From NCBI GenBank assembly GCA_965226795.1, contig CBDDDZ010000003.1:512001-576000 (forward strand): a stretch of DNA of 64,000 bases, in the 5' to 3' direction. Below are positions 1,046 through 55,500 of this stretch, in pieces. Source of the stretch: Candidatus Latescibacterota bacterium. Lineage in GTDB: Bacteria > Latescibacterota > UBA2968 > GCA-2709665. Every line of letters starts with the position of its first letter. Within the stretch, counting starts at the first letter, position 1. The notes under the pieces are model-generated. The model was not told the DNA's origin. It saw only the letters and a list, made by a program, of their open reading frames with translations, and did not search any database. The position numbers were made by a program, and so were the translations under genes.

Positions 1046-1220
1046 GGGGGTTTTTCCGCGTCATTCCATTCAGCAACGACGCATTTGATCGCCGACGGCC
1101 CTGGCAGGGCAACGACGCTTGTATTCTCGTGTGCGCCATTTCGCGGAAAAACCAGCCCTGCGGCGTCTGAGCAGCGCCGTTCTTTTTGGTCCTTTTTCTT
1201 AGGCGAATAAGAAAAAGGAC
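1046..1220 (+). repeat. Structured dispersed element, subtype A, copy A1 (no 33-bp insert)
   Basis: GGTTTTTCCGCG...81 nt...CGCGGAAAAACC stem, then CGCC-GTTCTTTTTG-GTCCTTTTTCTT-AGGCGAAT-AAGAAAAAGGAC pseudoknot. Confidence 0.9.
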
Positions 1221-1387
1221 GTAAGAAAGAATAGAATTAAGTGCAGCGATCAGCAAGAACAGCGAGTAGAAGTGAAAAGGATGAAACGGTGAGTAGGGAG
1301 AAGGGAGCAAAGGCGGAATACGAGCGGCTGAATCGTTATTCAAAACAGGCCAATCGACAATCCGCGGATAGCTGGATCTTTGATAGA

Positions 1388-1505
1388 GTGTTCATTTTCG
1401 CACATAGGCGTATCATTTTCGAACACTTGTCGGACGAGCCGAGACGCCGCTATTTGTTTCAAATTCCTGTTAATTAACAAATTGATTCATTGGCACGTTT
1501 ATCGC
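1388..1505 (+). promoter_or_regulatory. Putative sigma54 promoter with two tandem upstream activator sites
   Basis: TGGCAC-N5-TCGC at 1491-1505; imperfect palindromes GTGTTCATTTTCGCACAT (1388) and GCGTATCATTTTCGAACAC (1408); AT-rich spacer; same layout at 5886-6003. Confidence 0.75.
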
Positions 1506-1559
1506 AAGAAGAAGGATCAGTCCTATTCCGCGGCAGAAATTATGGGAGGTCAAGACGCT

Positions 1560-2276
1560 ATGAAACCGGTTTCCATCCTGATCGCGATGTTCAGCTTTTG
1601 CCTGGTGTCTGCTGGCTGTGACGCCGACGATTACGTGGAGGAGGAGGTCGTCGAGCGCTCGGTCGAATTTCAGTCGCGCGGACGGCTGGTGCTTGTCAAC
1701 GTGAACGGGAATGTATCGATCGATACCTGGGATCGACACGAGGTGAAGATGAAGGCGGAGAAGCGCGCGCGTGCCGAAAGCGAAGATGCGGCACGGTCGC
1801 TTCTTGAGAAGACCACGGTGCAGTTCGACCGTACCGAGAACCGGATTGACATCCGCACGGACGCGCCAAAAAAACCGGGAAGGAACCGGAACGTGAGCGT
1901 CACCTATACGGTGACGGTGCCCAAAGAGATCGAGCTGGAATTGAAATCGGTCAATGGAAGCGTACTGGCCAAAGATGTATCAGGCGCAGTCGATGCGAAA
2001 ACGACGAACGGAAAGATCAAGGTGACGGTTTCCGGGAGTGGCGACGAACCGCACGATATTCGCGCCGAAACGACAAACGGCGGCATTGAGGCCGGGTTGC
2101 CGAAACGGTTGAAAGCACACCTGAAGGCATCCACGGTTAGCGGGAAGATCGATACGGATTTTCCGGTTACCGTGAAGGGCCGCTTCAGCAAGTCGGTTGA
2201 TGGAGAGATTGACGGCGGCGGGAGACTGATCCATTTGAAGACGGTAAATGGCTCGATTCGATTGAAGCAGCTATAA
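1560..2276 (+). CDS. DUF4097 (adhesin-like beta-strand repeat) lipoprotein
   Basis: GGAGG RBS; lipobox-like LVSAGC; repeated T/S-x-NG-x-I motifs (NVNGNV, SVNGSV, TTNGKI, TTNGGI, TVSGKI, TVNGSI). Confidence 0.85.
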   Translation: MKPVSILIAMFSFCLVSAGCDADDYVEEEVVERSVEFQSRGRLVLVNVNGNVSIDTWDRHEVKMKAEKRARAESEDAARSLLEKTTVQFDRTENRIDIRTDAPKKPGRNRNVSVTYTVTVPKEIELELKSVNGSVLAKDVSGAVDAKTTNGKIKVTVSGSGDEPHDIRAETTNGGIEAGLPKRLKAHLKASTVSGKIDTDFPVTVKGRFSKSVDGEIDGGGRLIHLKTVNGSIRLKQL

Positions 2277-2372
2277 GCCGATGGCGGAACGCCACCGGCG
2301 GCGCGGCCTGCGCCGCCAAAACAGTTACTTCCTTGAGACACGTCTCCGGGAGAATTCGAAGGGAGATATATC

Positions 2373-3284
2373 ATGGACAGAATGGTCCTCGTTGTTGGAT
2401 TCTTTTCCTTCCTTGCCCTGGTTGCCTACGAATGCGAGACTCAAGCTGCCGTCCAGCCTTCGACCTTTATCGCATCGTTCTTCGCGGACGGAGCGCCGGA
2501 GGTCCCGCCGCTGAACCGACTCTCCTTGACCGATGTCATGCAGGCGCAGATGAGCTTGGAAGGAGCTACAAGATCAGTGGTTGTCCTCTGGGGGAAGAAT
2601 GGCAAGGGAGCGGATCGATTCTGGGTGGCGGGCTATGACGATGTAGGGAACGTCGAAATGTCGAATGGATCGATGAAGCGAGGCGAATCGGACGTCTACA
2701 AAGGTTCGGTTGACTTGAAGGCGCTTGGCGCTTCGCCACGATCTGTTGAAGTGGAGATCCGGGTCATACTTGCACAAAGACTGCTGTTATACAGGCAGGA
2801 AACCCAGGCATATTCCCTCTCAGCACGAGGAAGTGAATCAGGCGAGGAGCACGATAATCGGCTGAAGTGGCATGCACAGATACCCGATTTTCGGGTGCAG
2901 CTTCTCAATGGCGATTCTCTGGCAATCGCGGACCTGAGAGGCAGATTCGTGGTGATCAACTGGTGGGCGACCACCTGCTCGCCGTGTATTGCTGAGATGC
3001 CTGGGCTGAATGAGCTGGTGGATAAGTACAGCGGCAACGAGAGTATCTCGTTCCTAGCCATTGCAGCGGATACGAGGGAAGACCTTTCGCGATTCCTCGA
3101 GCGCCGCCGATTTGCATATATACAGGCGCTGTACAACGAGTCAGTGAAAGAGATATTCGGGAATGGGCTTCCCAGAAACGTCATCCTTGATCCGGATGGA
3201 GAGGTGGCATACGACCGTGTCGGTGGCAGCCCCACGACGCATAATATATTGGATGAAGCCATTGAGCGATTAATGTCTCGATAG
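2373..3284 (+). CDS. TlpA-family thiol-disulfide oxidoreductase with N-terminal extension
   Basis: RGRFVVINWWATTCSPCIAEMP CxxC motif; signal-like N-terminus. Confidence 0.85.
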   Translation: MDRMVLVVGFFSFLALVAYECETQAAVQPSTFIASFFADGAPEVPPLNRLSLTDVMQAQMSLEGATRSVVVLWGKNGKGADRFWVAGYDDVGNVEMSNGSMKRGESDVYKGSVDLKALGASPRSVEVEIRVILAQRLLLYRQETQAYSLSARGSESGEEHDNRLKWHAQIPDFRVQLLNGDSLAIADLRGRFVVINWWATTCSPCIAEMPGLNELVDKYSGNESISFLAIAADTREDLSRFLERRRFAYIQALYNESVKEIFGNGLPRNVILDPDGEVAYDRVGGSPTTHNILDEAIERLMSR

Positions 3285-3425
3285 ACGCAAATGGCACTGA
3301 ATAGCCACAGCTTCCAGGCTCGTCTTCCGGGCAAACTCGCCCATCCACCCCAGGCCAGGCACCTCGAAGGTCAATGATAAGAACGCTACTAAGGATTTTC
3401 GAATCACCCAGGAGGCACGGGATCC

Positions 3426-6187: not shown

Positions 6188-6393
6188 GGGGGGTTTTTCC
6201 GCGCGATTCCGTTCAGCACGGTTGCTTAGTGAATGCATCGAGGTGGTCAGGGCAGGGTTTCACGGTGCCTCCACAGAGGAAGTTCGCGGAAAAACCAGCC
6301 CTGCGGCGTCTGAGCAGCCTGCCTGCGCCGAGCCGTGCTCGGCAGGCAGGCGCCGTTCTTTTTGGCCCTTTTTCTTAGGCGAAGAAAAAGGGC
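6188..6393 (+). repeat. Structured dispersed element copy A2 (33-bp palindrome insert at 6318-6350)
   Basis: Same stem, 81-nt loop and pseudoknot as A1; insert CCTGCCTGCGCCGAGCCGTGCTCGGCAGGCAGG. Confidence 0.9.
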
Positions 6394-9725: not shown

Positions 9726-10688
9726 CTACAGAGGCCCCTGGTGCCCGGCGCGGATGGCTTCGCACAGCCGCATGGTCTGTACGGCGTCGTCCAGAGTTGA
9801 CCATGGCTCGCGGTCTTCCAGAATGCAGTCGACGAAGTGGACGATCTCGTTGAAGCCGGCCCCGCCAACGGCCTCGATTTCGTCGTCCCCCACCGTAAAA
9901 GCCTCGCCCCGCTCATATCCCTCCACATTCGGCGCCCTCGTCAGATCGAGATAGACCGATAAATCTTCGGCGTGCACTTCTGCCCTCTGGATCCGATAAC
10001 CCACGCCGTAGTGGCTCATCAGGACCCCGAAAGCGCCTGTGTCGAAGCGCACAACGGCGTTGTGGCGATGGCATACGGGGCGCTCGCCATCCTGCACCAT
10101 CCCCCGCACCTCCACCGGTATCGCTGCTTCCTCCGGGCCGGGACCTGCCAACCAGCGGATCAGGTCCACGTGGTGAATGGCGTCGCAGATCACCGGATCC
10201 GGCGTTGCGGCCTTAAACCGGGTTACCCGTTTGTTGTACGTGGCTGCGACGTGTACCGCGCCCCCGCCCGCCTGGATCCGCCGCCGGACCGCCAGCACCT
10301 GGGGATAGTATCGCCGGTTAAACGATACGATGGCCTTGCCGGTGCTCTGCCGGGCGGCGCGCGCCATCTGCCCGGTCTCGTCGGTGTTCATCCCGGGCGA
10401 CTTCTCCACCGACGTGTGAATACCGCGTTCCAGGCAATCGAGCACGATGGGAAGCAGATGGCCGGGATCCGTGACGACGTACACGAGATCCGGCCGGCAC
10501 GCGTCGAGCATCTGACGGTAGTCCGACGAGGCCAGGTCCGGCGCCCATTCCGCCTTGTTTTTTTGGAGACGCTCCCCGTCGAGTTCCGCAATGCCCGCCA
10601 GCTGAAGGCGTGGCTCGTCGGCTATCATCCGCAGGTGTGACTGGGCATGGCCGCCGCAGCCGATAACCGCCGCTTTCAAGTCTGTCAT
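9726..10688 (-). CDS. Gfo/Idh/MocA oxidoreductase
   Basis: VIGCGG Rossmann motif, VEKSP, FNRRY, DAIHHVD. Confidence 0.9.
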   Translation of the reverse strand: MTDLKAAVIGCGGHAQSHLRMIADEPRLQLAGIAELDGERLQKNKAEWAPDLASSDYRQMLDACRPDLVYVVTDPGHLLPIVLDCLERGIHTSVEKSPGMNTDETGQMARAARQSTGKAIVSFNRRYYPQVLAVRRRIQAGGGAVHVAATYNKRVTRFKAATPDPVICDAIHHVDLIRWLAGPGPEEAAIPVEVRGMVQDGERPVCHRHNAVVRFDTGAFGVLMSHYGVGYRIQRAEVHAEDLSVYLDLTRAPNVEGYERGEAFTVGDDEIEAVGGAGFNEIVHFVDCILEDREPWSTLDDAVQTMRLCEAIRAGHQGPL

Positions 10689-10775
10689 GGTGAATTCCTT
10701 TCAAGGAGGGTAGACGGAAGAAGGAAATAGATAAGAAAGAAAAACGCGAAGATGTATAACGTCCCCTATTCCCTT

Positions 10776-10982
10776 GCCCTTTTTCTTGCTTCGCCCAAGA
10801 AAAAGGGCGAAAAAGAAGGGCGCCTGCCTGCCGAGCACGGCTCGGCGCAGGCAGGCCGCTCGGCGCGGGGCCGGTTTTTCCGTGAATTTCCTCAGTAGTG
10901 GAATTGGAAATCGGGTGGCCTATGAGCCCTCCAGGAGCTGCCGGTGTACGGAGATTTACGGAAGAACACGGAAAAACCCCCC
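10776..10982 (-). repeat. Structured dispersed element copy A3
   Basis: Stem variant CCGTG/CACGG, 82-nt loop, 33-bp insert, pseudoknot CGCCC/GGGCG. Confidence 0.9.
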
Positions 10983-11144
10983 GCTCCACCTCCGTCCGGT
11001 CATTAGTTATTCCTTGAAGTTCTGACGAGCGGAATGGCGCTTGTACCGCTCTTTGCTGTATGCCGATAGTTATCTGCCAAATGCTGACCGCTGATCGCTC
11101 CTCACCCCCAGGAAACCCCACCGTTCTCTAACACGATGCCTCTT

Positions 11145-11338
11145 GAGAGGACTACCAGAGCAGGGCGCGTTTTTCCGTCCCGCTCCAAATTACGATTTCC
11201 TCCGTGGTTGGCAGGGCAGCGGATTGGGTGGGTCCCGTGAAGTAATTCGCGCCATGCATAAAACAGGCCCCGCGCCCAGCGGCGACTTTTGGTTCCTTTT
11301 GGTCGCTTCAAAAGGAACACGCCGTAGGCAGGGAATTT
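11145..11338 (+). repeat. Structured dispersed element subtype B, copy B1
   Basis: GCAGGGCGCG/CGCGCCATGC stem, 78-nt loop with the same boxes, GCGAC-TTTTG-GTTCCTTTTG-GTCGC-TT-CAAAAGGAAC pseudoknot. Confidence 0.9.
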
Positions 11339-11674
11339 GTGGAAAGGTGGATTTTGATTTTGACTTTCCCCTATTGCCTTTGGCTGACCCCTGACCGCTA
11401 CGTAGGGTAACATCTGTTCGGGCACATAGATAACACTTTTCGTGGCGGCCCCTGCAGGCTGCCACGTGACCGTTGAGGTGAGAAGTGTCGATAACCGGAA
11501 CGGTCGCGCCCGGGGTCGATGCGGGCGCCGCAGCAACGTTCGACCGGGGGTAAAGCGAGTGCGAACGCGAGGCGCGTCCCTTTTTCTGTTGACACCTCTG
11601 GACTTCCAACAGTACCATGACACCAGCATTTTGCGTCGTTCTCTGGTGATTGTACAACATAGAGGAGGTCAGAA

Positions 11675-13429
11675 ATGGACCGCGAGGAGATGAGCCACGA
11701 GGAGAACTACTGTTTCGATATTTCGGGCTACCTGATCTTACGGGGCGTTCTGACTCCCAAAGAGGTCGAGGCCTGCAATCGGGCGCTCGAGAGCGAGGGC
11801 CGCGTGAGTGGGATGCTGGGATGGCCCGCACCGCATAGGGAGCCGTTCCGGGACCTGATGGTCCAACCCCTGCTGGTTGGGTACCTGAACCAGCTCATCG
11901 GATATGGTTTCCGGCTGGACCGGGAACCGGAGCTGATCGGCAAAGCGGATGGGGCTGCCGGTGGCCTCGTTGGCGGCAATGAACCGATGGACGCCGGCCG
12001 GGCGTACTACATCCTCAACGGCCGCCGGCACTGCCAGGGAATACACGCCATCTGGGCGCTGTCCGATACGAGCGCGGGAGATGGCGGGTTTTCGCTGGTC
12101 CCGTGCAGCCACAAAAGCAATGTGGGAACCCCCGAAGATGTGCTGACCGGGAGGGACGACCTGGGACTGACCGTGCAGCCGGTGCTGAAGGCGGGCGACC
12201 TGCTGCTTTGCGTGGCGACCCTGCTTCAGGGCGTACGTCCCGGAACGAGGGAGCACCCGCAGCGGCTGCTCTTGTACAAATACGCGGGGCACGCGGCGGT
12301 GCAATCCATCGGCACCGGACCGAAGACCCGACGGGAGGACCAGCCGGAATGGATGGCGGAATTGACGCCGGAGCAGCGTGTTATGCTGCACAAGCCGGGA
12401 TACGGGGATTCGGACCCGCCTCCCACGCTCAGCTCGGATGGAGAGACCTGTCGGGTGGACCCGGAACCCGACCTGTCCCACCCTTCCATCTATATCAAGA
12501 ATCCGGATTCGAACATCGACGAGAAGGAGTTCTATTTTTGGGACCTGTGCGGTAATCTCGTCCTCCGAAATGTGATGACTCCGGAAGACCTGGCGCTGGC
12601 GAACGAGGCGGTCGACCGGTTTACGGACCGCATCGTGGTTGAAAGCGTAGATCTGGCCAAGGGGTCCAAGAGCCTGGCCGGAACCGGGCGGCCCACCATG
12701 ACCGGCCTGCTTGAAATGCCCAGGCCCTACTGTGAACCGTTCCGGAAGATGCTCGCCCACCCGGCAGTGGTACACCGCCTCACCTGGATGGGTGGGAAGG
12801 GCTTCCGGTGTACGGGCTTTGAGGCGATCTGTACGGCCAGGGGAGGCGCCGGACATTTTCTTCATGGCGGCAACGAGCCGTTGAGTCCATCTCGCAACTA
12901 TACCTTCCAGAACGGCCGCAGCTATGCGCTGGGGGGCCCGTCCGTTGCGGTGGCCTGGCAATTGCGGGATGTCACCAAGAACGACGGGGGGTTTGCCTGC
13001 GTGCCGGGAAGCCACAAGGCGCAGTACAGCATCCCCAGGGGCGTTTGGACCTGCGACGAGGACATGGGGCTGGTGGTACATCCGCTGACAAAGGCCGGGG
13101 ACGTCATCTTTTTTATGGACGGCCCGCAGGCGCACGGTGCACTGGCGTGGAAGAGCGACGTCCCGCGCCGCGTAATCCTGACGCGGTACTCCTCGCGGCA
13201 CTTCAACGGGGGGGCGGCAATGGCGACCCCGGAGGAGCGATGGGGGGATCTTCTGGAGGGGATGGGTGGGGCGCAGCTGGCGATGATGCGGGGGCCGGAC
13301 CGCGACGAGAAGGGCAGCAACGTGCCGCGGCTGGTTTCGGAGAACGGAAAAATCGAGGTCGTTTACGACCGGAGTCAGGGTGGGCTTTACACCGGGGCGA
13401 CCCCAAAGGGGGCGCCGTCCAGGCGTTGA
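11675..13429 (+). CDS. Tandem two-domain PhyH-family (Fe/2OG dioxygenase fold) protein
   Basis: Two repeats each starting Y.FD..G.L.LR.V.T; GGF..VP.SHK motifs; domain 2 has HGG...HG, domain 1 lacks both His. Confidence 0.85.
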   Translation: MDREEMSHEENYCFDISGYLILRGVLTPKEVEACNRALESEGRVSGMLGWPAPHREPFRDLMVQPLLVGYLNQLIGYGFRLDREPELIGKADGAAGGLVGGNEPMDAGRAYYILNGRRHCQGIHAIWALSDTSAGDGGFSLVPCSHKSNVGTPEDVLTGRDDLGLTVQPVLKAGDLLLCVATLLQGVRPGTREHPQRLLLYKYAGHAAVQSIGTGPKTRREDQPEWMAELTPEQRVMLHKPGYGDSDPPPTLSSDGETCRVDPEPDLSHPSIYIKNPDSNIDEKEFYFWDLCGNLVLRNVMTPEDLALANEAVDRFTDRIVVESVDLAKGSKSLAGTGRPTMTGLLEMPRPYCEPFRKMLAHPAVVHRLTWMGGKGFRCTGFEAICTARGGAGHFLHGGNEPLSPSRNYTFQNGRSYALGGPSVAVAWQLRDVTKNDGGFACVPGSHKAQYSIPRGVWTCDEDMGLVVHPLTKAGDVIFFMDGPQAHGALAWKSDVPRRVILTRYSSRHFNGGAAMATPEERWGDLLEGMGGAQLAMMRGPDRDEKGSNVPRLVSENGKIEVVYDRSQGGLYTGATPKGAPSRR

Positions 13430-13551
13430 GACCCTGGGCCGGGTTCAGGCCCTCCATGCGGAACGGAGCAGTCCCCGGAGCGAGAACACCGCGCCGGGGT
13501 CTGCAGTTTCGGAGATGCGGGGACGGGGTTTGGTCCTACTGCCTATCCCTT

Positions 13552-13759
13552 GCCCTTTTTCTTGCATCGCCAAAGAAAAAGGGCGAAAAAGAAGGGCGCC
13601 TGCCTGCCGAGCACGGCTCGGCGCAGGCAGGCCGCTCAGACGTCGCGGGGCTGCTCTTCCGCGAATCGCTTCACGGGAGATTACCAGCGTCGTTTCCCTG
13701 CGGCCCATTGGAGCGATCCGGAACCACATTGCTGGACGGATTACCGCGGAAAAGCCCCC
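13552..13759 (-). repeat. Structured dispersed element copy A4
   Basis: Same architecture, 81-nt loop, 33-bp insert. Confidence 0.9.
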
Positions 13760-13894
13760 GCCCCGCCTTCGGGCGGGCGAGAGTTGGTCTGGATAAGACC
13801 GCCGCTTGTGCTTGTACCGCCTTTAGCCGACAGCTTACGGCTGATAGATCCTCGCTCACGGAATACCGATGTAAATACACTCGAAATGCCTTTC

Positions 13895-14090
13895 GAGAGG
13901 ACTGCCAGAGCAGAGCGCGCGGTTCCGTCCAGCAGCTCGGCCCCTGATATTCACCATTGTTTGCAGGGCAGCAGATCCCGTGTATCCCGTGAGATAATTC
14001 GCGCTGTGCATATGGCAGGCCCCGCGCCTAGCGGCGACTTTTGGTTCCTTTTGGTCGCTTCAAAAGGAACCCGCCGGAGGCAGGGAATTC
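13895..14090 (+). repeat. Structured dispersed element copy B2
   Basis: Same architecture as B1, 80-nt loop. Confidence 0.9.
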
Positions 14091-14212
14091 GGGGAGATGT
14101 AGTTTTTCGATCTAGTTTCGTGCCTCTGGCTGACCGCTGCTCGCTGCCATTGTTTCCCTTTGTGTCTTCGTGCCTTTGTGTGAGTTGATGTTCCCGCGCC
14201 AAGGCTGAATTT

Positions 14213-14237
14213 GTAGGGGCAACCCTTGTGGTTGCCC
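14213..14237 (+). repeat. GTAG-type REP-like palindrome
   Basis: GTAG-GGGCAACC-CTTGT-GGTTGCCC. Confidence 0.8.
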
Positions 14238-14359
14238 GCATACGGGCGCGGACATCGGCAATTAACGTCGCCAGGCCGAATCGCTAGCCGGTTTAAGCTG
14301 ACAGCTGTAAGCTGATGGCTAATAGCTTATTTTTCCTCCACCCGACAACTTATTTTTCC

Positions 14360-21951: not shown

Positions 21952-22157
21952 GTCCTTTTTCTTTCTCGCCAAAGAAAAAGGACCAAAAAGAACGGCGCCT
22001 GCCTGCCGAGCACGGCTCGGCGCAGGCAGGCCGCTCAGACGTCGCGGGGCTGCTTTTCCGCGAATCGCCTCAGGGGCATGAACTTGGGTTGATGGCCTGC
22101 CGACATCGAGGGCGTTTATAGGCCGTATTGCTGGACGGAAAAACGCGGAAAAGCCCC
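21952..22157 (-). repeat. Structured dispersed element copy A5
   Basis: GCTTTTCCGCG/CGCGGAAAAGC stem, 81-nt loop, insert, pseudoknot. Confidence 0.9.
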
Positions 22158-22225
22158 TTCCACCTCCGGGCGGGTGAAGGACGAAACCGAGAGGCCGCGA
22201 ACCCCCTGGTGCCGTCGTTGCATTT

Positions 22226-22357
22226 GTAGGGGCAACCCCTTGGGTTGCCCTCATCGTGGCGCGCAATTAGCCGATTGACTTTGCCAGGCCATATCGTTTG
22301 CCGGGTTTGGCTGACTGCTGATCGTGGATTCGCGGGCGACGCATGCGTCGCCCCTAC
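22226..22357. repeat. Inverted pair of GTAG-type REP-like palindromes (REPIN-like)
   Basis: GTAGGGGCAACCCCTTGGGTTGCCC at 22226 and GGGCGACGCATGCGTCGCCCCTAC at 22334. Confidence 0.8.
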
Positions 22358-22498
22358 GAATGCTACGTCGGCATCGCCATCTGTTAATAGATTTCACCGG
22401 GCCGTATCGGTAACCGGTTTTAGCTGACGGCTAACTACTGATCGCCTATTGCTGCTCGTCCACAGGAACCCACGCGGACTACGAAAGCGATTCCATTC

Positions 22499-22692
22499 GA
22501 GAGCGCGTTCAGAGCAGAGCGCGCGGTTCCGTCCCGCACCGAACAACGGTATCCGCCTTATCCGGTAGGGCAGAGGATCATGTGCATCCCGTGAGGCAAT
22601 TCGCGCTGTGTATATGGCAGGCTCCGCGCCAAGCGGCGACTTTTGGTTCCTTTTGGTCGCGTCAAAAGGAACTCGCCGAAGGCAGGGAATTT
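22499..22692 (+). repeat. Structured dispersed element copy B3
   Basis: Same architecture as B1/B2, 78-nt loop. Confidence 0.9.
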
Positions 22693-26785: not shown

Positions 26786-28615
26786 ATGAGGTTTCGGTCC
26801 GCTCATTACAATCTTGCATTCGTGATCGGAGCGACGGTCCTGCTCTCGATGAGTACAGTGGCTCAGGTCTTACCGCAATCCGAGGGCGCCAGTTCAACTC
26901 AGGCGCGCCCCCATCTTCTCCAGGTACGCGTTGAGTCACAATCCGACCCCAATCCTGATTTTGACAGGAACGGCGTCGTGGATTTTCCCGACTTCGTCTT
27001 GTTTGCGCGAAGGTTCGGGGTAAGCCGAGGCGATGAAACGTTCGAGGCGCGATACGACCTGGATGGTGACGGAAATGTCGGGTTTTCTGATTTCCTGATC
27101 TTTGCCAGGAACTTCGGTAAGTCGGTAACGATACCCACTACGGGGATTTGTGGGCGGACGCCTCAGGTGCGGCGTGCCATCCTGAACGCGCTGCCCGATA
27201 TGGACGACTGTGCCCTGGTCCCGGACGTGCATCTGCACTCTATCCGGAGCCTGGATCTTAAGTACGAGCGCATTACTGCCCTGATGGGAGACGATTTTTC
27301 CGGGCTGGACAGCTTGAGGGCCATATCGCTCGAATTCAACGACATAAGCTCGCTGCCAGAGGGAGTGTTTTCCGGTCTCGTGAAACTGGTGGAGCTGGAT
27401 CTGAGCCGCAACAAAATGAAAACTCTTTCAGACGGGTTGTTTTCCGGCCTGGTCAAGCTGCGCGTTCTCAAACTTCAAGGCAACGGTCTGACAACATTGC
27501 CAGAGGGGGTGTTTTCCGGCCTGGACAGCTTGAAAGTATTGGAGATCGGTTTCAGTGATGTATATACCGTATCCGATGATGTGTTTTCAGGTCTGACACC
27601 CGATCTAGAGGTGTTGCGGCTGTATAATGACGATCTTCGCAAGCTGCCGGCAGGTGTATTTTCTACATTGGATAATTTGCAGGAACTGCGGCTTTTTTCT
27701 CCGGGTTTGCGGATTATGCCGGAAGGCGTCTTCTCCGGTCTGTCGAACTTGCGTCGCCTGCGTTTATACACTATACACGTACGCACGCTGCCTGCCGGGA
27801 TATTTTCCGGCCTGGTCAATCTGCGGTACATAAGCCTTAATGACAGCCATCCATTGACCACATTGCCCGCAGGGGTGTTTTCCGGCCTGGATAGCTTACG
27901 TTTCCTGACCATTTTCAATAACGAAGGACTTCGCACGTTGCCGGAGGGTGTATTTGCCGGCCTGTCCAGCCTGGTACACCTGGTCGTCTTTTCAAACGAC
28001 AAGCTGAGCGCGCTTCCAAAGAACGCTTTCTCCGGACTGACCAACCTGGAGTACCTGGGCGTTTATGGCAACGATGAATTGAAAACAATGCCACAAGATG
28101 TTTTCTCCGGACTGACAAACCTGAACGGCCTGAGTCTTTTTGGAAACGATCAACTGAGCACGCTACCTAGGGGCGTATTCTCGGGTCTCCCCAGATTGGG
28201 ATCCCTCACCCTGTTCGATTGCGGATTCGTCCGGCTTCCTGAGGGGATATTCACCGGACTGTCCAGGGTGGGAACACTCTGGCTTCACGGTAACCCCGGG
28301 TCGCCCTTTACCCTGACGGTTGAGTTGGTTCGCAAGGACAACAAAGACAGGACGGCGCCGGGGCCCGCGAATGTCGTCATCAAAGTTGCCGAAGGAGCGC
28401 CGCGTGAAATGACCGTCAGCCTTTCGGCGCGGGGCGGCACCCTGTCGGCGGATAAGGCCACAATTGCAGTGGGAGCGACCGAGAGCGAGACCGTCGTGGT
28501 GACCCAAACAGAGGGCGGTCCTGTCATAGTCATCCCTGGTTCGGCATCTGCCCTGCCAACGAGATTCCTGGGCTTAAAGACCGCCGTGGGCGATTCCCTC
28601 GTGCTGTTTCGATAG
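26786..28615 (+). CDS. Secreted leucine-rich-repeat protein with N-terminal dockerin-like paired EF-hand module
   Basis: Signal peptide; DFDRNGVVDFPDF and DLDGDGNVGFSDF; about 14 LRRs (L..LP.GVFSGL..L..L.L..N). Confidence 0.9.
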   Translation: MRFRSAHYNLAFVIGATVLLSMSTVAQVLPQSEGASSTQARPHLLQVRVESQSDPNPDFDRNGVVDFPDFVLFARRFGVSRGDETFEARYDLDGDGNVGFSDFLIFARNFGKSVTIPTTGICGRTPQVRRAILNALPDMDDCALVPDVHLHSIRSLDLKYERITALMGDDFSGLDSLRAISLEFNDISSLPEGVFSGLVKLVELDLSRNKMKTLSDGLFSGLVKLRVLKLQGNGLTTLPEGVFSGLDSLKVLEIGFSDVYTVSDDVFSGLTPDLEVLRLYNDDLRKLPAGVFSTLDNLQELRLFSPGLRIMPEGVFSGLSNLRRLRLYTIHVRTLPAGIFSGLVNLRYISLNDSHPLTTLPAGVFSGLDSLRFLTIFNNEGLRTLPEGVFAGLSSLVHLVVFSNDKLSALPKNAFSGLTNLEYLGVYGNDELKTMPQDVFSGLTNLNGLSLFGNDQLSTLPRGVFSGLPRLGSLTLFDCGFVRLPEGIFTGLSRVGTLWLHGNPGSPFTLTVELVRKDNKDRTAPGPANVVIKVAEGAPREMTVSLSARGGTLSADKATIAVGATESETVVVTQTEGGPVIVIPGSASALPTRFLGLKTAVGDSLVLFR

Positions 28616-36849: not shown

Positions 36850-36957
36850 ATTTGCTCGATACTGCCGCTGCGAGCCCGGTTAATTTATGAATTGTCAAGA
36901 TTACCTGGTTTTTTCGAAAATCAATCAACTCCACGCCCGCGCGATGGTTTGTCGATC

Positions 36958-37330
36958 CGTTGAAGAAGCGTGTCTGAAGGTGGGGCAGACATTCCTGTCT
37001 GCCCTGCTCATTGCCCTTCTGCCGCGACGTAAACAGAAGAAAGGCTTGCGTCGTCTTAGTAGACCTTATACTCGTAGTTGCGCTTTACCCACGGCTTACG
37101 CGCTTCTTGGAAGACGCGGCGATTGTCCCGAGGGATTGCGACAGCGAGGCGAGAGGTAATCCTGTAGATAGCACCTTCCTTTTTCCTATGGGGGAGGCGG
37201 CGGTGAGTCGCGGCGTGCCCGGATAACGGATTGTGAGGTTTCGGTTTGATGTATGTGAGCAGACAGGAATGTCTGCTCCACCCTTTCAATCCTTTGTTTG
37301 AGGTATCGCTTGACTGTATCAACCACCCGA
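36958..37330 (+). repeat. Composite REP-bounded non-coding element (inverted homolog at 59240-59555)
   Basis: GTGG-type palindromes at 36980 and 37258; 37180-37330 is highly similar to the reverse complement of 59240-59390. Confidence 0.8.
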
Positions 37331-42344: not shown

Positions 42345-42593
42345 GCCTTGTGGATCCTCAAGTTTCATCCCTCGGCCACCCGGTGGTGGCGCGAGGGCTT
42401 TTGTTCGCGGCATAAAACGTGCCGCTCACCATCAGCCTCGAACGCCAACACCAGGCGTCCCCTGTTGTCCCGATAAACCTCCGGAACAACAGGTCACCCG
42501 CTACGCGGGCGGACGTAGATTCCGCGCTCTATCACACAACATCACTATCGTACCGAACCTCGTGAGGTACTATCAAGCTTACGGTTGTGGTGT

Positions 42594-42799
42594 GGGGGGT
42601 TTTTCCGTGTTCATCCGACCAGCACCGTAGTATTGGTACAGTTAAGGAGCCTGTAGGCCACCCAATTTCCGCTTATGCCCCTGAGGTGATTCACGGAAAA
42701 ACCGGCTCCGCGCCGAGCGGCCTGCCTGCGCCGAGCCGTGCTCGGCAGGCAGGCGCGGTTCTTTTTGGTCCTTTTTCTTACGCGAATAAGAAAAAGGAC
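42594..42799 (+). repeat. Structured dispersed element copy A6
   Basis: CCGTG/CACGG stem, 82-nt loop, insert; pseudoknot helix changed compensatorily to CGCG/CGCG. Confidence 0.9.
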
Positions 42800-46683: not shown

Positions 46684-46686
46684 ACG

Positions 46687-48043: not shown

Positions 48044-48130
48044 TCATCGCTTTCACGATAGAAACCACATGGCCGAAGCGCATGTTATCTCAACCTTTTC
48101 CCGAATCCGCGAGGAATTTTCATGGTCTGA

Positions 48131-48278
48131 GATTCAGGCAGGTCTTCTGGCTCCTGGATCACCTGGTTCTCGCGCCTTCCCGGTTTTAACCAGTGGCATC
48201 GCGGCGAGAAACATCCCCAGTTACAGCGGCGGGACCGCAACGGATTTTAACCGTTTTCCCTATTTTGTAACCTGAATC
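48131..48278 (-). ncRNA. Cobalamin riboswitch
   Basis: Minus strand AGGGAAAACGGTTAAAATCCG, CCCGCCGCTGTAA, GCCACTGG...CCGGGAAGGC, B12 box AGCCAGAAGACCTGCC; closing GATTCAGG/CCTGAATC helix. Confidence 0.95.
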
Positions 48279-48561
48279 CGGAATTACTATGGCAATGTCG
48301 TGTTATCTAAATGTGGAAAATCCTCCCGTGAATGGCCCCTGTGGTGAATCGTGAGCCGACCCAACGAAGGCGAACCGTAATCTATGGATACGAAATATAC
48401 GCCGCTGATTCCATAACATCAAGAACTTTGTTTCTAATCGCTCAGTGTCTGGTCTGTTCGGGAACAGCACGTCTCCGGCTGTCGGCCTTCAAGGGTCGGA
48501 TTCCTGCAGCCATTCGGGTGTCTGCCGGCGAGTTGGCAACTGAGTGTTACTGGATGATGGG

Positions 48562-50809: not shown

Positions 50810-50815
50810 ACTAGT

Positions 50816-52696
50816 CCTTAAACAAGCGTGATGGTGAGATTTTTCTGGTCCAAGAGACCGGAAAGGCCTACCGTTGTTGGAGATAGATGGATTGCGCTAG
50901 AAATCATCACTCCAACGCAGGAGACCTTTCCGGTGAAAAGAATATCGGTTGATGACAGCCGCAGGAACAGTGCTCGTCGCAAACGCAAAGTGGCCGCCCG
51001 CCACGGTCGAGCGGGGCATTGGCAGGCGCAGCCCCGGCCCATGTTCAGCCCTGGCAAAGTGCACTACGAGGTGGGCGCCTACACCGACGCGATGAGTTAC
51101 GGAGGCATCGGCGCCGTGCATCGCCTGGTCACCAAGCTGGGTCTGCCCAAGCGCATCGACGCGTCGCTGTCCCTGTTGAAGGTGCATCTGCCCTATCATG
51201 AGTCGGACCACGTACTAAACATCACATACAACGTGTTGTGCGGCGGCACGCGCCTGGAGGATATCGAGCGTTTTCGACATGACGGGGCCTACATGAATGC
51301 CCTGGGTGCTCAGTTGATTCCCGATCCGACCACGGCGGGTGACTTTTGCCGACGCTTCTCGGAACGGGACATCGTCGAACTGATGGCGTGCATCAACGCG
51401 GTGCGATCCTCCTTGTGGGCATCGCGTGGCCGCAAATTGCTTTGTGACATCACCTATATCGACGTGGACGGCACAAACGTGCCGACGTATGGAAAGCGCA
51501 AGAGGGGTATGGACATCTCTTACCAGGGCATCTGGGGCTACCATCCGCTGGTGATCTCACTGGCCAACACGAAGGAAGTGCTCTTCCTGGTCAACCGACC
51601 GGGGAATGTGCCCAGCCACACCGGTGCGGCACCCTGGATCGACGCGGCCTTGGCGCTGGTGCAGCCCCACGCCAAGCGCCTCTGTGTACGTGGCGACACC
51701 GACTTTTCCTTGACCCGACATTTTGATCGATGGGCGAAAAGCGTCGACTTCATCTTCGGGATGGACGCCAACGCGACGATGCGTTCCCGTGCTGAGGCCC
51801 TCGACGAGGCACAATGGCAGCCCCTGCAACGCAAACCCCGTTATCACACCGTGACCGACCAGAAGCGGAAGCGCAATCAGCCCCACGAGAAACAGCGCAT
51901 CGTCCGCAAACGGGCCTACGCCAACCTGGTCCTCAACCACGAACACGTGGCCGAGTTCAACTACCAACCCACGCGCTGTAAACGTGTGTATCGCGTCGTG
52001 GTCCTGCGCAAGAACATCAGTAAAATGAAGGGCGACCTTGTCCTGTTCGACGAATGCCGTTATTTCTTCTATATCACGACACGCACGGACGTAAGCCCCG
52101 CCGAGATCGTCGCCTGTGCCAACCAACGCTGCGATCAGGAGAACGTCATCGAGCAACTCAAAAACGGCGTCAACGCCTTGCGCGTGCCCCTGTATGACCT
52201 GGTCAGCAACTGGGCCTACATGGTCATCGCCGCGCTGGCCTGGAACCTCAAATCCTGGTTTGCCATGATGATGCACCGACACCTGGACCGACAGCAGTAC
52301 GTCCGCATGGAATTCCGGCGCTTCATCCACAGCATCATCTTGATTCCCTGCCACGTCATCCAACGCGCGCACACCACCACGTTGCGCCTCATCGGCTATC
52401 AACCCACCCTCGATCGCCTCTTCAGCACCTGGCGTATCATTGAACGCACCGGATTTGGATAACACCAATGCAGCACCACCGATGACACACACACGCCGCG
52501 CCATCCCCACACCCCTCAACGGACCGGTGTGTCCACCACGCGCCTGACCGCCACTTCGGATACTCAATTCACGATAGCGACCACGACAAACACCGCCCCA
52601 AAGATCATCCAAAACGCCAATTCCATATAAATCGACACCAACGCCTCACCACAAACACAGATCGATGTGCCGCACACGAAACTCGCTTATTTTAGG
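50816..52696 (+). mobile_element. Complete IS1380-family insertion sequence
   Basis: Terminal IRs CCTTAAACAAGCG / CCTAAAATAAGCG; flanked by ACTAGT at 50810-50815 and 52697-52702. Confidence 0.92.
50828..52462 (+). CDS. IS1380-family DDE transposase (start may be downstream GTG)
   Basis: PDPTTAGDFCRRF, IDVDGT, GYHPL, VRGDTDF, RCDQENVIEQLKNG. Confidence 0.93.
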   Translation: MMVRFFWSKRPERPTVVGDRWIALEIITPTQETFPVKRISVDDSRRNSARRKRKVAARHGRAGHWQAQPRPMFSPGKVHYEVGAYTDAMSYGGIGAVHRLVTKLGLPKRIDASLSLLKVHLPYHESDHVLNITYNVLCGGTRLEDIERFRHDGAYMNALGAQLIPDPTTAGDFCRRFSERDIVELMACINAVRSSLWASRGRKLLCDITYIDVDGTNVPTYGKRKRGMDISYQGIWGYHPLVISLANTKEVLFLVNRPGNVPSHTGAAPWIDAALALVQPHAKRLCVRGDTDFSLTRHFDRWAKSVDFIFGMDANATMRSRAEALDEAQWQPLQRKPRYHTVTDQKRKRNQPHEKQRIVRKRAYANLVLNHEHVAEFNYQPTRCKRVYRVVVLRKNISKMKGDLVLFDECRYFFYITTRTDVSPAEIVACANQRCDQENVIEQLKNGVNALRVPLYDLVSNWAYMVIAALAWNLKSWFAMMMHRHLDRQQYVRMEFRRFIHSIILIPCHVIQRAHTTTLRLIGYQPTLDRLFSTWRIIERTGFG

Positions 52697-53595: not shown

Positions 53596-53746
53596 GTCGT
53601 TGTCCTTTGCCCGGGTGCCGGTTCGGTTGTCCGGACCGGAAGGAATGGCAGGGAGCAGCTCCCTGCCAAGGTGGATGGTCCAGGGTGACCGTCGTCGGTA
53701 CTTCCCGGATCGCCTTGGTCCAGCTACATATGTACTAACCGTTGTA

Positions 53747-54817
53747 CTAACCGTAGACCGCCTGAATCATGGCATTGATGTAGCCGAAGCAGTACGCGTA
53801 GGACTGATAGGAGCGCATCGGATCGTCGTCAGTCCACGGAACGTGGTCCGGATCGATGCCGTAACAGTAGCCCGTGTCCTTCAGGGCCCTTAATACCCGG
53901 TGGAAGTCCATATCTCCTTCGTCGGGCAGAGACTCGCGGAAGCTGTAACGCCCGCCGAGTATGTTTCGATAGTGAACCAGGAAGATCGTGTTACGGCTGC
54001 CAAAGTATTCGATGGTGGGGTAGATTTCAGTGGCCGGATCTTCCAGCCCTTCAGCGATGGAGCCGACGCAGAAGTTCCAGCCGTGATACGGACTGCGCTG
54101 AATCTCGATGAAACGCTTCATGCCCTCAAAGTCGTTGAGGACTTTGTCAACGCCCATATAACCGGGGGGTGTGGCAGGGTCTTCCTGGGAATTGCCCATC
54201 CGAACCTTGAATTCTTCCGCCACCGGAATCATGCGTTCGAGCAGATAATCAATTCGTTCCCAGTGCATGTCCGCCGTGACGCGTCCGGCATCAGTCAGCC
54301 TGGCCTGTTCTTCTGCCGGGATCTTCTCCACGCGGAACGCGGTGTGGTAGAAGCCGCCGCGGCCTTCCTCCGGTTCCGTACGGTCGATGGGAAGGACGCA
54401 AGTGTTATAGCGCAGAGAATCGATGCCGGCCCGCGAAGCGGTCCGGATCATTTCGCATACGAGGTCGATTTCCCGGTCGCGCTCCGGGCTTTTGCCGAAA
54501 TAGATGATGTTGGGAAATCTCTCGTATATGGGCAGCGAGCTCATATCCAGTGTTATCCCGAAGGCCTCGTGGCGCTCTCGTACCTGGACCAGTTCCTCGA
54601 GGTCCCAGCCCCTGCCGGGGTGGAACGGAAAGACAACGGCCTTGTGGCGCACGCCGCAGCGCTGCAGAAAACGCAACTCCGCATCGGTTGACCCGAAACT
54701 CTGTGTGCGCACGTACATACGCCCGCCGTTCGACGATGACTGTGACGCGCCTCCGGTGGCGGAAGCGGCCGCCTCACCGGCTGCGAGGCCTTGTTCAAAT
54801 GGATCGGATTTCGTCAT
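53747..54817 (-). CDS. uxuA: Mannonate dehydratase (UxuA)-like protein
   Basis: IPVAEEFKVRM, NFCVGS, VHYRN, DEGDMD, DPDHVP, AYCFGY. Confidence 0.8.
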   Translation of the reverse strand: MTKSDPFEQGLAAGEAAASATGGASQSSSNGGRMYVRTQSFGSTDAELRFLQRCGVRHKAVVFPFHPGRGWDLEELVQVRERHEAFGITLDMSSLPIYERFPNIIYFGKSPERDREIDLVCEMIRTASRAGIDSLRYNTCVLPIDRTEPEEGRGGFYHTAFRVEKIPAEEQARLTDAGRVTADMHWERIDYLLERMIPVAEEFKVRMGNSQEDPATPPGYMGVDKVLNDFEGMKRFIEIQRSPYHGWNFCVGSIAEGLEDPATEIYPTIEYFGSRNTIFLVHYRNILGGRYSFRESLPDEGDMDFHRVLRALKDTGYCYGIDPDHVPWTDDDPMRSYQSYAYCFGYINAMIQAVYG

Positions 54818-55046
54818 TTGGTTCCTTTCGTTGGCATGGCTTCAATGTGGGAAGACAGACGACGTACACTGTCGTTATATGCGTTCGAAAACTATCGTGA
54901 GGTCGTCCTTCTCGGGTTATACAAAGTGTCTTACCGGGTAGACCGGAAGTGGACAATCACGCATTGGAACTGCGTTCCGGGCGGATGGTTATTGAATTCG
55001 GAGCGGCATAGAATCTCCCCCACCACCTAACGTCCCCTATTCCCTT

Positions 55047-55255
55047 GCCCTTTTTCTTGCATCGCCCAAGAAAAAGGGCGAAAAAGAAGGGCGCCTGCCT
55101 GCCGAGCACGTCTCGGCGCAGGCAGGCCGCTCAGACGCCGCGGGGCTGCTTTTCCGCGAATCGCCTCAGTGGTTCACACGTACGGAAATGCCCTGCAAAT
55201 TCCAGCGGTTTACAAATGCCAAGGTGCTGGACGGAAAAACGCGGAAAAACCCCCC
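55047..55255 (-). repeat. Structured dispersed element copy A7
   Basis: Same architecture, 81-nt loop, insert with one substitution. Confidence 0.9.
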
Positions 55256-55355
55256 ACGTCCCCATTGGGTGGCCGAGAGCCAAAACTGAGAGGCCACAAG
55301 GCGGGCGGTTCGCGAACCGCCCCTACAACAATGTGACATCCGCGATATTGACATC

Positions 55356-55500
55356 GCGGCGACTTTTGGTTCCTTTTGGTCGCTTCAAAAGGAACTTGCC
55401 GAAGGCAGGGAATTTGGGGTGATGTTGAATTTGGTTTAGACTTTTGATTCCTTAACGCGCCCCTAGGCGCGGGGCCGGTTTTTCCGCGAACTGCCTCAGA
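55356..55500. repeat. Partial element copies (B pseudoknot 55356-55415; A fragment 55466-55500)
   Basis: GCGGCGACTTTTGGTTCCTTTTGGTCGCTTCAAAAGGAAC and GGCGCGGGGCCGGTTTTTCCGCGAA. Confidence 0.8.

What the first reader, a model, noticed from the sequence alone, without database searches (positions are those of the whole stretch)
1046..55500. Dispersed ~200-bp structured element with fixed-length variable segments in a covarying scaffold (10 full copies, 2 subtypes)
Seen in sequence: copies A1 1046(+), A2 6188(+), A3 10776(-), A4 13552(-), A5 21952(-), A6 42594(+), A7 55047(-), B1 11145, B2 13895 and B3 22499 (all +). All share an outer stem that covaries (CCGCG/CGCGG vs CCGTG/CACGG; subtype B uses a different GCAG.GCGCG/CGCGC..TGC stem). 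The stem encloses 81, 81, 82, 81, 81, 82, 81, 78, 80 and 78 nt respectively. In the loop, a box TCCGTCCAGCA (degenerate in A3), a box YAGG(G/C)C (AGG at loop position 46 in 8 of 10 copies) and a box (C/G)TGAGGCGATT are separated by ~28-nt and ~20-nt segments that diverge in sequence but keep their length. A short covarying hairpin (CCGC/GCGG vs CTGC/GCAG) and a pseudoknot follow. G-T wobbles in A4 and A7 favour the strand with the pseudoknot at the 3' end. Orientation relative to neighbouring genes is inconsistent, so it is unlikely to be a riboswitch. Inference: an unnamed structured ncRNA or ssDNA family. It could be a non-autonomous mobile element with strict geometry, or a scaffold with variable guide-like slots. 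Caveat: some variable segments are related between copies (A1/A4, A3/A6), which fits drift under a length constraint as well as programmed guides. No cognate protein is visible in this window.
Basis: partly seen in the sequence, partly recalled or inferred. Interest (0 to 1): 0.9.

Follow-up and report, generated by a model that had tools for sequence, protein, structure and literature searches.

The report
Paired folded repeats with fixed-length loop
About 110 copies of a ~200-base non-coding repeat lie between this bacterium's genes, often as back-to-back pairs of two versions; each keeps a predicted knot-like fold and a loop of fixed length whose sequence drifts and is likely swapped between copies, so it is likely a mobile element copied by an unknown enzyme rather than a programmable guide RNA.

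Summary
The genome holds 112 copies (81 A, 31 B) and the family is in all 14 congeners searched. A covarying basal stem closes an unstructured loop of 81-82 nt (A) or 78-79 nt (B), followed by a small hairpin and a pseudoknot with a predicted pyrimidine triple helix. The guide reading is not supported: the variable segments share one ancestor, have no targets, and no IS110 or TnpB was found. No partner enzyme was identified; expression is unresolved. Closest published kind: the extended TwoAYGGAY elements of Pseudomonadota (basal stem, 3' pseudoknot, divergent doublets), but the AYGGAY hairpins are missing, so it is not a member. No Rfam match. The scan noted this or look-alike families before in other Latescibacterota genomes, and the pseudoknot module in other phyla. 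Verdict: a real, uncatalogued variant of structured interspersed repeats; most likely a non-autonomous element with strict geometry.

The parts
1046..1220 (+). A1: basal stem 1046-1060/1142-1152, 81-nt loop 1061-1141, small hairpin, pseudoknot with predicted triple helix 1174-1220; no palindrome insert
6189..6393 (+). A2: 81-nt loop 6204-6284, optional 33-nt palindrome 6319-6351, pseudoknot 6350-6393; part of a ~450-bp stretch absent from 5 of 5 congeners
10776..10981 (-). A3: 82-nt loop 10885-10966, insert 10822-10854, pseudoknot 10776-10823; left arm of doublet A3-B1
10982..11159 (.). Junction of doublet A3-B1: 5' extensions of both arms and short 7-mer repeats; 99% identical at the same site in G013
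11160..11329 (+). B1: stem 11160-11169/11248-11257, 78-nt loop 11170-11247, pseudoknot and terminal tetraloop hairpin 11279-11329
13552..13759 (-). A4: 81-nt loop 13664-13744, insert 13598-13630, pseudoknot 13552-13599; the copy at the same site in G013 has nearly the same loop but another scaffold variant
13760..13909 (.). Junction of doublet A4-B2
13910..14081 (+). B2: 80-nt loop 13920-13999, pseudoknot and hairpin 14031-14081
21952..22157 (-). A5: 81-nt loop 22063-22143, insert 21997-22029, pseudoknot 21952-21998
22158..22513 (.). Junction of doublet A5-B3, holding REP-like palindromes and 7-mer repeats
22514..22683 (+). B3: 78-nt loop 22524-22601, pseudoknot and hairpin 22633-22683
42400..42594 (+). 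Upstream 'C' module and degenerate loop-like extension in front of A6 (approximate ends); C module seen 5' of 16 of 112 copies
42595..42799 (+). A6: 82-nt loop 42610-42691, insert 42722-42754, pseudoknot 42753-42799
55047..55254 (-). A7: 81-nt loop 55159-55239, insert 55093-55125, pseudoknot 55047-55094
55356..55444 (+). Truncated B arm (pseudoknot and tail only) behind a REP-like palindrome; remnant of a doublet with A7
55459..55514 (-). Truncated A fragment (last box, stem strand, start of hairpin)

Best explanation
This is a multi-copy non-coding repeat with two homologous arm types, A and B, that is likely a non-autonomous mobile element copied as a folded single strand by an enzyme encoded elsewhere. 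Shown: 112 copies; covarying stem and pseudoknot; three boxes at fixed distances; an unstructured loop whose other positions drift by substitution; strict A-B pairing in divergent doublets; filled and empty sites among congeners; unlinked modules. Inferred: the copying protein holds the stem and the pseudoknot/triple helix and reads the three boxes at set distances, so an indel in the loop ends a lineage while substitutions between boxes are neutral; the A-B doublet is the full unit, with one folded 3' end on each strand, and single arms are derivatives or move alone; gene conversion with crossovers in the conserved boxes swaps loop halves and scaffold parts between sites and species. My first guess for the enzyme is a HUH tyrosine transposase of the RAYT kind acting on ssDNA (about 4 in 10 given this explanation; untested). 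A minor second route is riding inside DDE-type MITEs.
For: Geometry: stem-to-box1 4 nt in 118 of 121 parsed A loops, box1-to-AGG 41 nt in 112 of 121, AGG-to-stem 36-37 in 116 of 121; B is equally tight (own genome plus relatives). 1,105 parsimony substitutions against 21 gap-state changes in 75 A loops, as low as in diverged IS1380 coding copies (5-11 gap openings per 248-348 mismatches) and far below decayed IS or intron copies (12-57 per 10-50). Loop has no covarying pairs, MFE z about 0, no kept reading frame. Doublets: 24 of 24 divergent pairs under 2 kb are A-B in G000, median gap 214 bp; 23 of 24 in relatives' loci. A doublet junction is 83% identical at two non-orthologous sites (L164 and a G000 doublet). 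Turnover: A2 site empty in 5 of 5 congeners; other sites hold other copies or the opposite orientation. Recombination: distance correlations between v1, v2 and scaffold are 0.01-0.08, and 27 pairs with identical scaffold still differ by 0.62 and 0.54; all combinations of hairpin, insert and pseudoknot variants occur, linkage holding only between adjacent parts; same loop with another scaffold at the A4 site, half-replaced loop at the A3 site. For HUH: no terminal inverted repeat or target duplication seen at the filled/empty pairs printed; REP-like palindromes within 400 bp 5' of 50 of 112 copies (about 15 expected from the genome count of this loose pattern); a RAYT above cut-off is in the genome. 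MITE route: 4 of 112 copies lie inside an IS630-type MITE; a sister element in G016 sits in a ~518-bp MITE with inverted repeats and 4-bp duplications.
Against: No partner enzyme: 0 of 32 Y1-transposase loci and 0 of 6 RT loci carry a core or pseudoknot; Y1 was not found in 7 of 14 congeners, including G009, which has 31 pattern matches; no gene family other than expanded metabolic ones recurs beside copies. Few young near-identical copies at different sites in G000, so current movement is not shown. Insertion ends could not be fixed to the base; some 'empty' sites are deletion remnants. The length figures come from copies found with a full-length profile, and loop-less derivatives exist. Recombination inflates the parsimony substitution count. 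Some copies persist in place across species with the same loop (6 of the 22 same-orientation comparisons printed, covering 3 G000 copies, rank first), which host-level selection would also explain.
Confidence: 0.5

Rival explanations
1. Host-retained non-coding RNAs: each arm is transcribed outward from the doublet junction or as part of neighbouring mRNAs, the triple-helix pseudoknot protects the 3' end, and the loop presents three boxes to a host RNA-binding protein (sponge or scaffold); spread is secondary.
For: Pyrimidine strand matches the purine strand in register and run length in A, B and the G016 sister (sequence), as in 3'-protecting triple helices (recalled); G-T over A-C 15 to 3; pseudoknot module kept in 58 distinct phage/prophage loci (helix 3.84 bp against at most 3.02 in 2,000 shuffles); a sponge role is proposed for TwoAYGGAY elements (10.64898/2026.09.22.753630, discussion passage).
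Against: Sites are not conserved among congeners; orientation to genes is mixed; no sigma-70-like promoter in the A3-B1 region; CsrA not found and only 10 AYGGAY on the folded strand of 112 copies; RNA-library contigs cover genes and elements alike and cannot show a transcript.
Confidence: 0.2
2. A double-stranded DNA site: the three boxes and the inverted stem are protein-binding half-sites at fixed helical spacing (recombination or chromosome-organisation site, as proposed for Neisseria NIMEs), and copies spread by recombination with incoming DNA.
For: Fixed spacing with free sequence is how promoter and recombination regions evolve (seen in the orthologous promoter block at the A2 site); the register also extends 70 nt outside the B stem; module shuffling and near-identical blocks shared between species; copies avoid the 2.5 Mb around the GC-skew switch of C5.
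Against: A covarying pseudoknot, a triple-helix register and the strand-biased G-T pairs need a single strand; no clear 10-11-bp periodicity of conservation.
Confidence: 0.12
3. An RNA copied by a reverse transcriptase in trans (SINE-like), the loop serving as a template domain next to a triple-helix pseudoknot as in telomerase RNA (recalled) or as in UG27/DRT ncRNAs.
For: Architecture: single-stranded loop closed by a helix beside a triple-helix pseudoknot; many substitutions and few indels; UG27 arrays show sequence-diverse, structure-conserved units with a pseudoknot and short motifs that bound the cDNA (sections 9, 10 of the preprint).
Against: The two RTs tested are group II intron maturase type; none of 6 RT loci is near a copy; UG27 units are arrays beside their RT and template a hairpin, here the loop is unstructured and dispersed; substitutions are plain transition-biased, not adenine-specific; no 5'-truncation series or target duplication was seen.
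Confidence: 0.1
4. Programmable guide scaffolds (bridge RNA, omega RNA or TIGR-like) with two acquired guide slots.
For: Two variable segments of near-fixed length between boxes, exchanged as modules; a slight excess of 16-17-nt genome matches for v1 (9 against 4.1 in shuffles), not traced.
Against: Segments descend from one ancestor; no match of 18 nt or more in the genome, none in own flanks; one v1 and the box pattern have no exact match in IMG/VR (low power); no IS110 or TnpB in G000; the same fixed-register drift occurs outside the loop.
Confidence: 0.05

Closest known systems
Extended TwoAYGGAY elements of Pseudomonadota (Rfam RF01731 core; bioRxiv 10.64898/2026.09.22.753630; probably the R200 repeat of PMC2718517, my inference from 47 versus 48 copies in SBW25)
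   Same: Intergenic, tens to hundreds of copies, long basal stem, 3' pseudoknot, divergent doublets (68%, median 249 bp there; 24 of 31 close pairs, median 214 bp here), flanking short repeats and REPs, unknown mover. The pseudoknot end of a TwoAYGGAY-type locus (L096) aligns with the A end.
   Different: No AYGGAY hairpins, no RF01731 match, no CsrA found; the stem closes an unstructured fixed-length loop; doublets are strict heterodoublets of two arm types; copies are far more diverged (the paper says most positions are highly conserved); REPs lie mostly 5', not at a fixed 3' position; other phylum.
REP / REPIN / BIME with RAYT transposases (PMC5581495 passages; rest recalled)
   Same: Non-autonomous intergenic repeats, inverted doublets, structure-dependent copying in trans, mosaics with other repeats.
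   Different: Arms are ~200 nt with a pseudoknot, not 20-40-nt palindromes; no RAYT is flanked by the element (0 of 32 loci).
Neisserial intergenic mosaic elements, dRS3 + RS (PMC1797815 passages)
   Same: Conserved inverted ends around variable cores in many subfamilies, dynamic at syntenic sites, recombination-driven.
   Different: RS cores vary from 19 to 214 bp; here the core is 81-82 or 78-79 nt with internal boxes, and there is a pseudoknot.
UG27 reverse-transcriptase ncRNA arrays (same preprint, sections 9-10)
   Same: Sequence-diverse, structure-conserved ~150-170-nt units with a pseudoknot and short motifs bracketing the variable part.
   Different: UG27 units are tandem arrays beside a three-gene RT system in phages and template a hairpin; here dispersed, no RT beside them, loop unstructured.
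TIR MITEs (IS630- and IS1380-derived)
   Same: Short, non-coding, multi-copy; a sister element in G016 is carried by an IS1380-type MITE and 4 copies here by an IS630-type MITE.
   Different: A and B arms themselves have no terminal inverted repeats or target duplications that I could see.

Membership tests
Extended TwoAYGGAY element | Two AYGGAY-loop hairpins on a basal stem (RF01731) | tested here: not met
   No RF01731 hit at gathering score or E<=10; 10 AYGGAY on the folded strand of 112 copies; loop unstructured
Extended TwoAYGGAY element | Elongated basal stem | tested here: met
   10-bp covarying stem in 67 A copies, extendable to ~15 bp
Extended TwoAYGGAY element | 3' pseudoknot | tested here: met
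   4-5-bp helix in 67 of 71 A copies; aligns with L096
Extended TwoAYGGAY element | Divergent doublets, gap about 250 bp | tested here: met
   24 of 31 pairs under 2 kb, median 214 bp
Extended TwoAYGGAY element | 5' array of 5-6-nt repeats | tested here: inconclusive
   A different, 7-mer tandem repeat lies 5' of 22 and 3' of 9 of 112 copies; the paper's motif set was not counted
Extended TwoAYGGAY element | REP arrays at a fixed position downstream | tested here: not met
   REP-like hits 5' of 50 and 3' of 19 of 112 copies, at variable distance
Extended TwoAYGGAY element | Match to the paper's extended covariance model | not testable with these tools
   Model and supplements of the preprint are not available here
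REP/REPIN-RAYT | Element flanks a RAYT gene | tested here: not met
   0 of 32 Y1 loci carry core or pseudoknot; the RAYT at L003 has its own short palindromes
REP/REPIN-RAYT | Arms are 20-40-nt palindromes | tested here: not met
   Arms are 170-210 nt
REP/REPIN-RAYT | Cleavage of the folded ssDNA by RAYT | not testable with these tools
   Needs an in vitro assay
TIR MITE | Terminal inverted repeats shared with an IS, and target-site duplication | tested here: not met
   Only 4 of 112 copies lie inside IS630-type ends; IS1380-type ends flank none in G000 but do bound the G016 sister element; none seen at filled/empty pairs
Guide RNA systems (IS110 bridge RNA, TnpB omega RNA, TIGR) | Cognate effector in the genome | tested here: not met
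   PF02371 and PF07282 not found in G000; IscB and Nop-domain Tas proteins were not searched
Guide RNA systems (IS110 bridge RNA, TnpB omega RNA, TIGR) | Variable segments match targets or own insertion site | tested here: not met
   106 v1 and 106 v2 segments: longest match 17 nt; own flank 8.5/7.9 against other flanks 8.2/7.7; split 4-9-nt guides at unknown ends could be missed
Guide RNA systems (IS110 bridge RNA, TnpB omega RNA, TIGR) | Variable segments of independent origin | tested here: not met
   p-distance 0.60/0.57 against 0.74 random; subfamilies shared across species
UG27 ncRNA array | Tandem array beside a UG27 RT; central hairpin as template | tested here: not met
   Dispersed; RTs tested are group II intron type and not adjacent; loop MFE z about 0
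Riboswitch / cis-regulatory RNA | Constant 5' position and orientation to related genes | tested here: not met
   All four orientation classes are common for A and B (104 of 112 copies scored)
Any transcribed ncRNA | Discrete transcript with defined ends | tested here: inconclusive
   Only assembled contigs were available; they cannot show strand, ends or level

The most novel reading that the evidence does not exclude
A and B are the two halves of a bipartite bacterial retro-element: each RNA folds like the template/pseudoknot core of telomerase, a triple-helix pseudoknot recruits a reverse transcriptase in trans and the 81/78-nt loop is a length-measured template, making these the bacterial counterpart of SINEs, with the same pseudoknot end serving unrelated bodies across many phyla.
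Probability: 0.1. Interest if true: 0.9.

Novelty: new variant of a known kind. Interest (0 to 1): 0.5.

Why it matters
The same pseudoknot/triple-helix end occurs in many phyla and in phages and has no known job or mover; the extended TwoAYGGAY paper leaves that question open. This family adds constraints that a mover must meet: a measured 81/78-nt loop with three boxes, and obligate pairing of two different arms. These give direct mutational tests (insert 1-5 nt, swap arms, break the triple helix) and a bait for pulling down the unknown protein. Finding it could reveal a new way for short non-coding elements to copy themselves in bacteria. It is not a new programmable guide system on present evidence.

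Tried and rejected
Rfam: window at gathering score gave only a cobalamin riboswitch; 10600-14300 at E<=10 gave one spurious miRNA hit; 20 pseudoknot-bearing viral loci gave no family over the motif; 10 loci at E<=1 gave a sub-threshold TwoAYGGAY hit in L096, 400 nt from the motif. Plasmids: no match for A1 or B2. IMG/VR: no exact match for the A pseudoknot pattern, one v1 segment or the three-box pattern. Hidden pairing in the loop: none. Hidden ORF or concatemer frame: stops in all six frames, mixed lengths. DGR-type mutagenesis: substitutions hit all bases. Autonomous copy with a gene between the arms: three long divergent gaps held ordinary genes; no transposase-like family recurs beside copies. 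Y1 transposase co-occurrence: not seen. Arm-to-arm hairpin as the cause of the length limit: partner loops are only slightly more alike than non-partners (38.5 against 37.4, permutation p 0.002, 45 doublets that are not independent), too weak to build on. Strand bias to replication: 60 leading, 35 lagging, 17 unclear on noisy skew, not decisive. Expression: RNA-library contigs cover genes and elements alike; no conclusion. My early idea that a third body ('D') shares the pseudoknot was wrong: it is a separate IS630-type MITE. No covariance model or R-scape test was run; covariation was counted directly. Literature searches that found no description of this family.

Full report
Observation. A profile of the ten cores finds 112 copies at E<1e-5 in the 5.41-Mb, 96% complete genome, 81 of type A and 31 of type B. 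A full A copy as query matched 14 of 14 congeners, 4 of 7 other genomes of the family and 2 of 19 of the next family; a strict A pseudoknot pattern was found in 17 of 151 genomes of the phylum, all in this family. Named records with the B pseudoknot are titled Candidatus Latescibacterota, Gemmatimonadota or uncultured MAGs, and several runs holding the stretch are labelled sponge metagenome; I infer a sponge-associated Latescibacterota host.

Anatomy. On the strand with the pseudoknot at the 3' end each arm reads: a 5' extension, a basal stem, the loop with three boxes, the other stem strand, a small hairpin, an optional 33-nt palindrome (43 of 75 A copies), an H-type pseudoknot, and in B a terminal tetraloop hairpin. 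The A stem gives 651 Watson-Crick, 15 G-T, 3 A-C and 1 other pair in 67 copies; its two variable pairs are the top covarying columns. The pseudoknot helix is 4-5 bp in 67 of 71 A copies, with compensating variants. The pyrimidine run that crosses the second helix matches its purine strand in register, and the run length changes with it between A, B and the G016 sister element (sequence), which predicts a triple helix; this is inferred, not probed. Single copies do not fold better than shuffles, so the structure rests on covariation.

The loop. Lengths in G000: A 81 in 48, 82 in 21, other in 6 of 75 parsed (6 of 81 not parsed); B 78-79 in 26 of 31. In relatives' loci: A 81-82 in 49 of 50, B 78-79 in 67 of 71 distinct loops. 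Each sub-distance is fixed to within about one base. A tree of 75 A loops needs 1,105 substitutions but 21 gap-state changes (recombination inflates the first figure); diverged IS1380 coding copies in the same genome show 5-11 gap openings per 248-348 mismatches and decayed IS or intron copies 12-57 per 10-50. So length is constrained about as hard as a reading frame, yet no frame is kept, no pairs covary inside the loop and loops fold like shuffles (mean z -0.09 and 0.02 for 60 A and 60 B loops). The same indel-poor drift continues about 70 nt upstream of the B stem. Caveat: copies were collected with a full-length profile, and loop-less derivatives exist.

Not guides. The two variable segments differ by 0.60 and 0.57 on average, against 0.74 for random sequence of this composition, and form subfamilies that recur in other species. 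Of 106 v1 and 106 v2 segments none matches the masked genome over 18 nt; there is a small untraced excess at 16-17 nt for v1 (9 against 4.1); matches to own flanks equal those to other flanks. IS110 (PF02371) and TnpB (PF07282) were not found; IscB and Tas proteins were not searched. One v1 segment and the three-box pattern have no exact match in IMG/VR, a weak test.

First, pairing: of 31 neighbouring pairs under 2 kb in G000, 24 are divergent and all 24 are A-B (median gap 214 bp; 24 of 31 B copies); in relatives' loci 23 of 24 are. Random pairing of 81 A and 31 B would give about 40% A-B (arithmetic). One junction type is 83% identical at two non-orthologous sites (L164 and a G000 doublet), which suggests that the doublet moves or converts as a unit. 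Second, shuffling: distances in v1, v2 and the 3' scaffold are nearly uncorrelated (0.01-0.08), 27 pairs with identical scaffold have unrelated loops, and all combinations of hairpin, insert and pseudoknot variants occur, with linkage only between adjacent parts. At the A4 site G013 has almost the same loop on another scaffold; at the A3 site G008 has half the loop replaced. I read this as gene conversion between copies.

Mobility. In five congeners the region is syntenic. The A2 site is empty in 5 of 5; other sites hold the same doublet, a different copy, the opposite orientation or nothing. Relatives' copies map to both filled and empty sites in G000; of 22 same-orientation comparisons printed, 6 (three G000 copies) have the co-located copy as best match. 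I saw no terminal inverted repeat or target duplication at the pairs printed, and could not fix the ends; some empty sites are deletion remnants. Four copies lie inside an IS630-type MITE. In G016 a sister element with the same scaffold and another body is amplified inside a ~518-bp MITE with IS1380-type ends; 12 of the 15 loci fetched had both ends, most with a 4-bp duplication. Riding in MITEs is thus one route, but not the main one here.

Partner enzyme. None found. The genome has a RAYT above cut-off, a partial one, and group II intron RTs, but 0 of 32 Y1 loci and 0 of 6 RT loci carry the element, Y1 was not found in 7 of 14 congeners, and neighbours of copies are ordinary, expanded metabolic families. 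REP-like palindromes are enriched 5' of the arms (50 of 112, about 15 expected). This, the lack of target duplications and the single-strand fold make a HUH enzyme my first guess, untested.

Wider context. A degenerate pattern for the pseudoknot end finds 78 IMG/VR stretches; in 58 distinct ones the pseudoknot helix averages 3.84 bp against at most 3.02 in 2,000 shuffles (the triple-helix runs were imposed by the pattern). It also occurs in Bacillota and a CPR record with other bodies. One such locus, L096, has AYGGAY hairpins before the pseudoknot and a sub-threshold TwoAYGGAY hit nearby. The preprint 10.64898/2026.09.22.753630 (abstract, passages and sections 8-10 read; supplements closed) describes extended TwoAYGGAY elements with an elongated basal stem, a 3' pseudoknot, divergent doublets (68.4%, median 249 bp), flanking repeats and a mobile-element-like spread of unknown mechanism. 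The family here has that plan but fails its defining feature, the AYGGAY hairpins, and CsrA was not found: it works like, but is not, a member. NIMEs (PMC1797815, passages), REPINs/RAYTs (PMC5581495, passages; rest recalled), R200 (PMC2718517, passages) and UG27 arrays are the next comparisons; PMC2864571 (passages) lists TwoAYGGAY as probably not cis-regulatory. Nine literature searches found no description of this family. Earlier notes of this scan report the same or similar elements in other Latescibacterota genomes and the pseudoknot module elsewhere; they are not independent support.

Expression. Eight run layings were contigs only; RNA libraries cover genes and elements alike. Unresolved.

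Verdict. Real, uncatalogued, structurally constrained repeat; most likely a non-autonomous element whose unknown copier measures a fixed-length loop and uses two different arms, with recombination rewriting the parts (0.5). Host ncRNA 0.2, duplex DNA site 0.12, retro-element 0.1, guide scaffold 0.05. New variant of a known kind; interest 0.5.

Noticed in passing
window 48120-48290 (-): Cobalamin riboswitch (111.9 bits) upstream of a periplasmic-binding protein and TonB-dependent receptor cluster.
   Followed up: no
window 50828-52462 (+): IS1380-type DDE transposase; the family has 9 similar ORF copies in the genome, several over 98% identical.
   Followed up: partly
G000, 65 paired sites; parent at L295:707-1549: IS630-derived MITE, mostly 56-210 bp, often flanked by TA; inserts into or encloses the element.
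   Followed up: partly
G016, e.g. L264:1500-2080: About 43 copies of a ~518-bp MITE with IS1380-type ends and 4-bp duplications that carries the same scaffold and pseudoknot around another body; shared polymorphisms are shuffled among copies.
   Followed up: partly
window ~42400-42525 (+): A further ~130-bp structured 'C' module sits 5' of 16 of 112 copies and is followed by a degenerate loop-like stretch.
   Followed up: no
G000 C5 0.6-3.1 Mb: Only 9 of 112 copies lie in the 2.5 Mb around the GC-skew switch of C5 (likely the terminus); REP-like and 7-mer repeats are also scarcer there.
   Followed up: partly
window 6319-6351 and 57 other sites: A ~33-nt palindrome is an optional insert at a fixed spot; 46 of 58 such palindromes in the genome lie at these elements; variants also insert into B arms and other repeats.
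   Followed up: partly
window 10855-13505: The A3-B1 doublet and the next gene are 96-99% identical in G013 and G008 while neighbouring genes are 84-91%, suggesting recent exchange between species.
   Followed up: no
L001, L002 (G000 C2 ~164-170 kb), L003: Two ~1,200-aa ORFs with a RAYT-like domain, and a stand-alone RAYT flanked by its own short palindromes; similar long fusions in congeners.
   Followed up: no
window 26786-28615 (+): Leucine-rich-repeat protein with a dockerin-like motif, of the kind common in sponge symbionts (the generalisation is recalled).
   Followed up: no
window 55547-55888 (-): HicB-family gene beside A7; this site holds different small genes in each congener.
   Followed up: no
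window 37178-37322 / 59253-59397 and 36950-37009 / 59502-59561: Two further dispersed repeat pairs (83% and 90%) not part of the finding.
   Followed up: no
L060-L137: The pseudoknot/triple-helix end occurs in 78 phage or prophage stretches with unrelated upstream bodies and no Rfam family over it in the 20 tested.
   Followed up: partly
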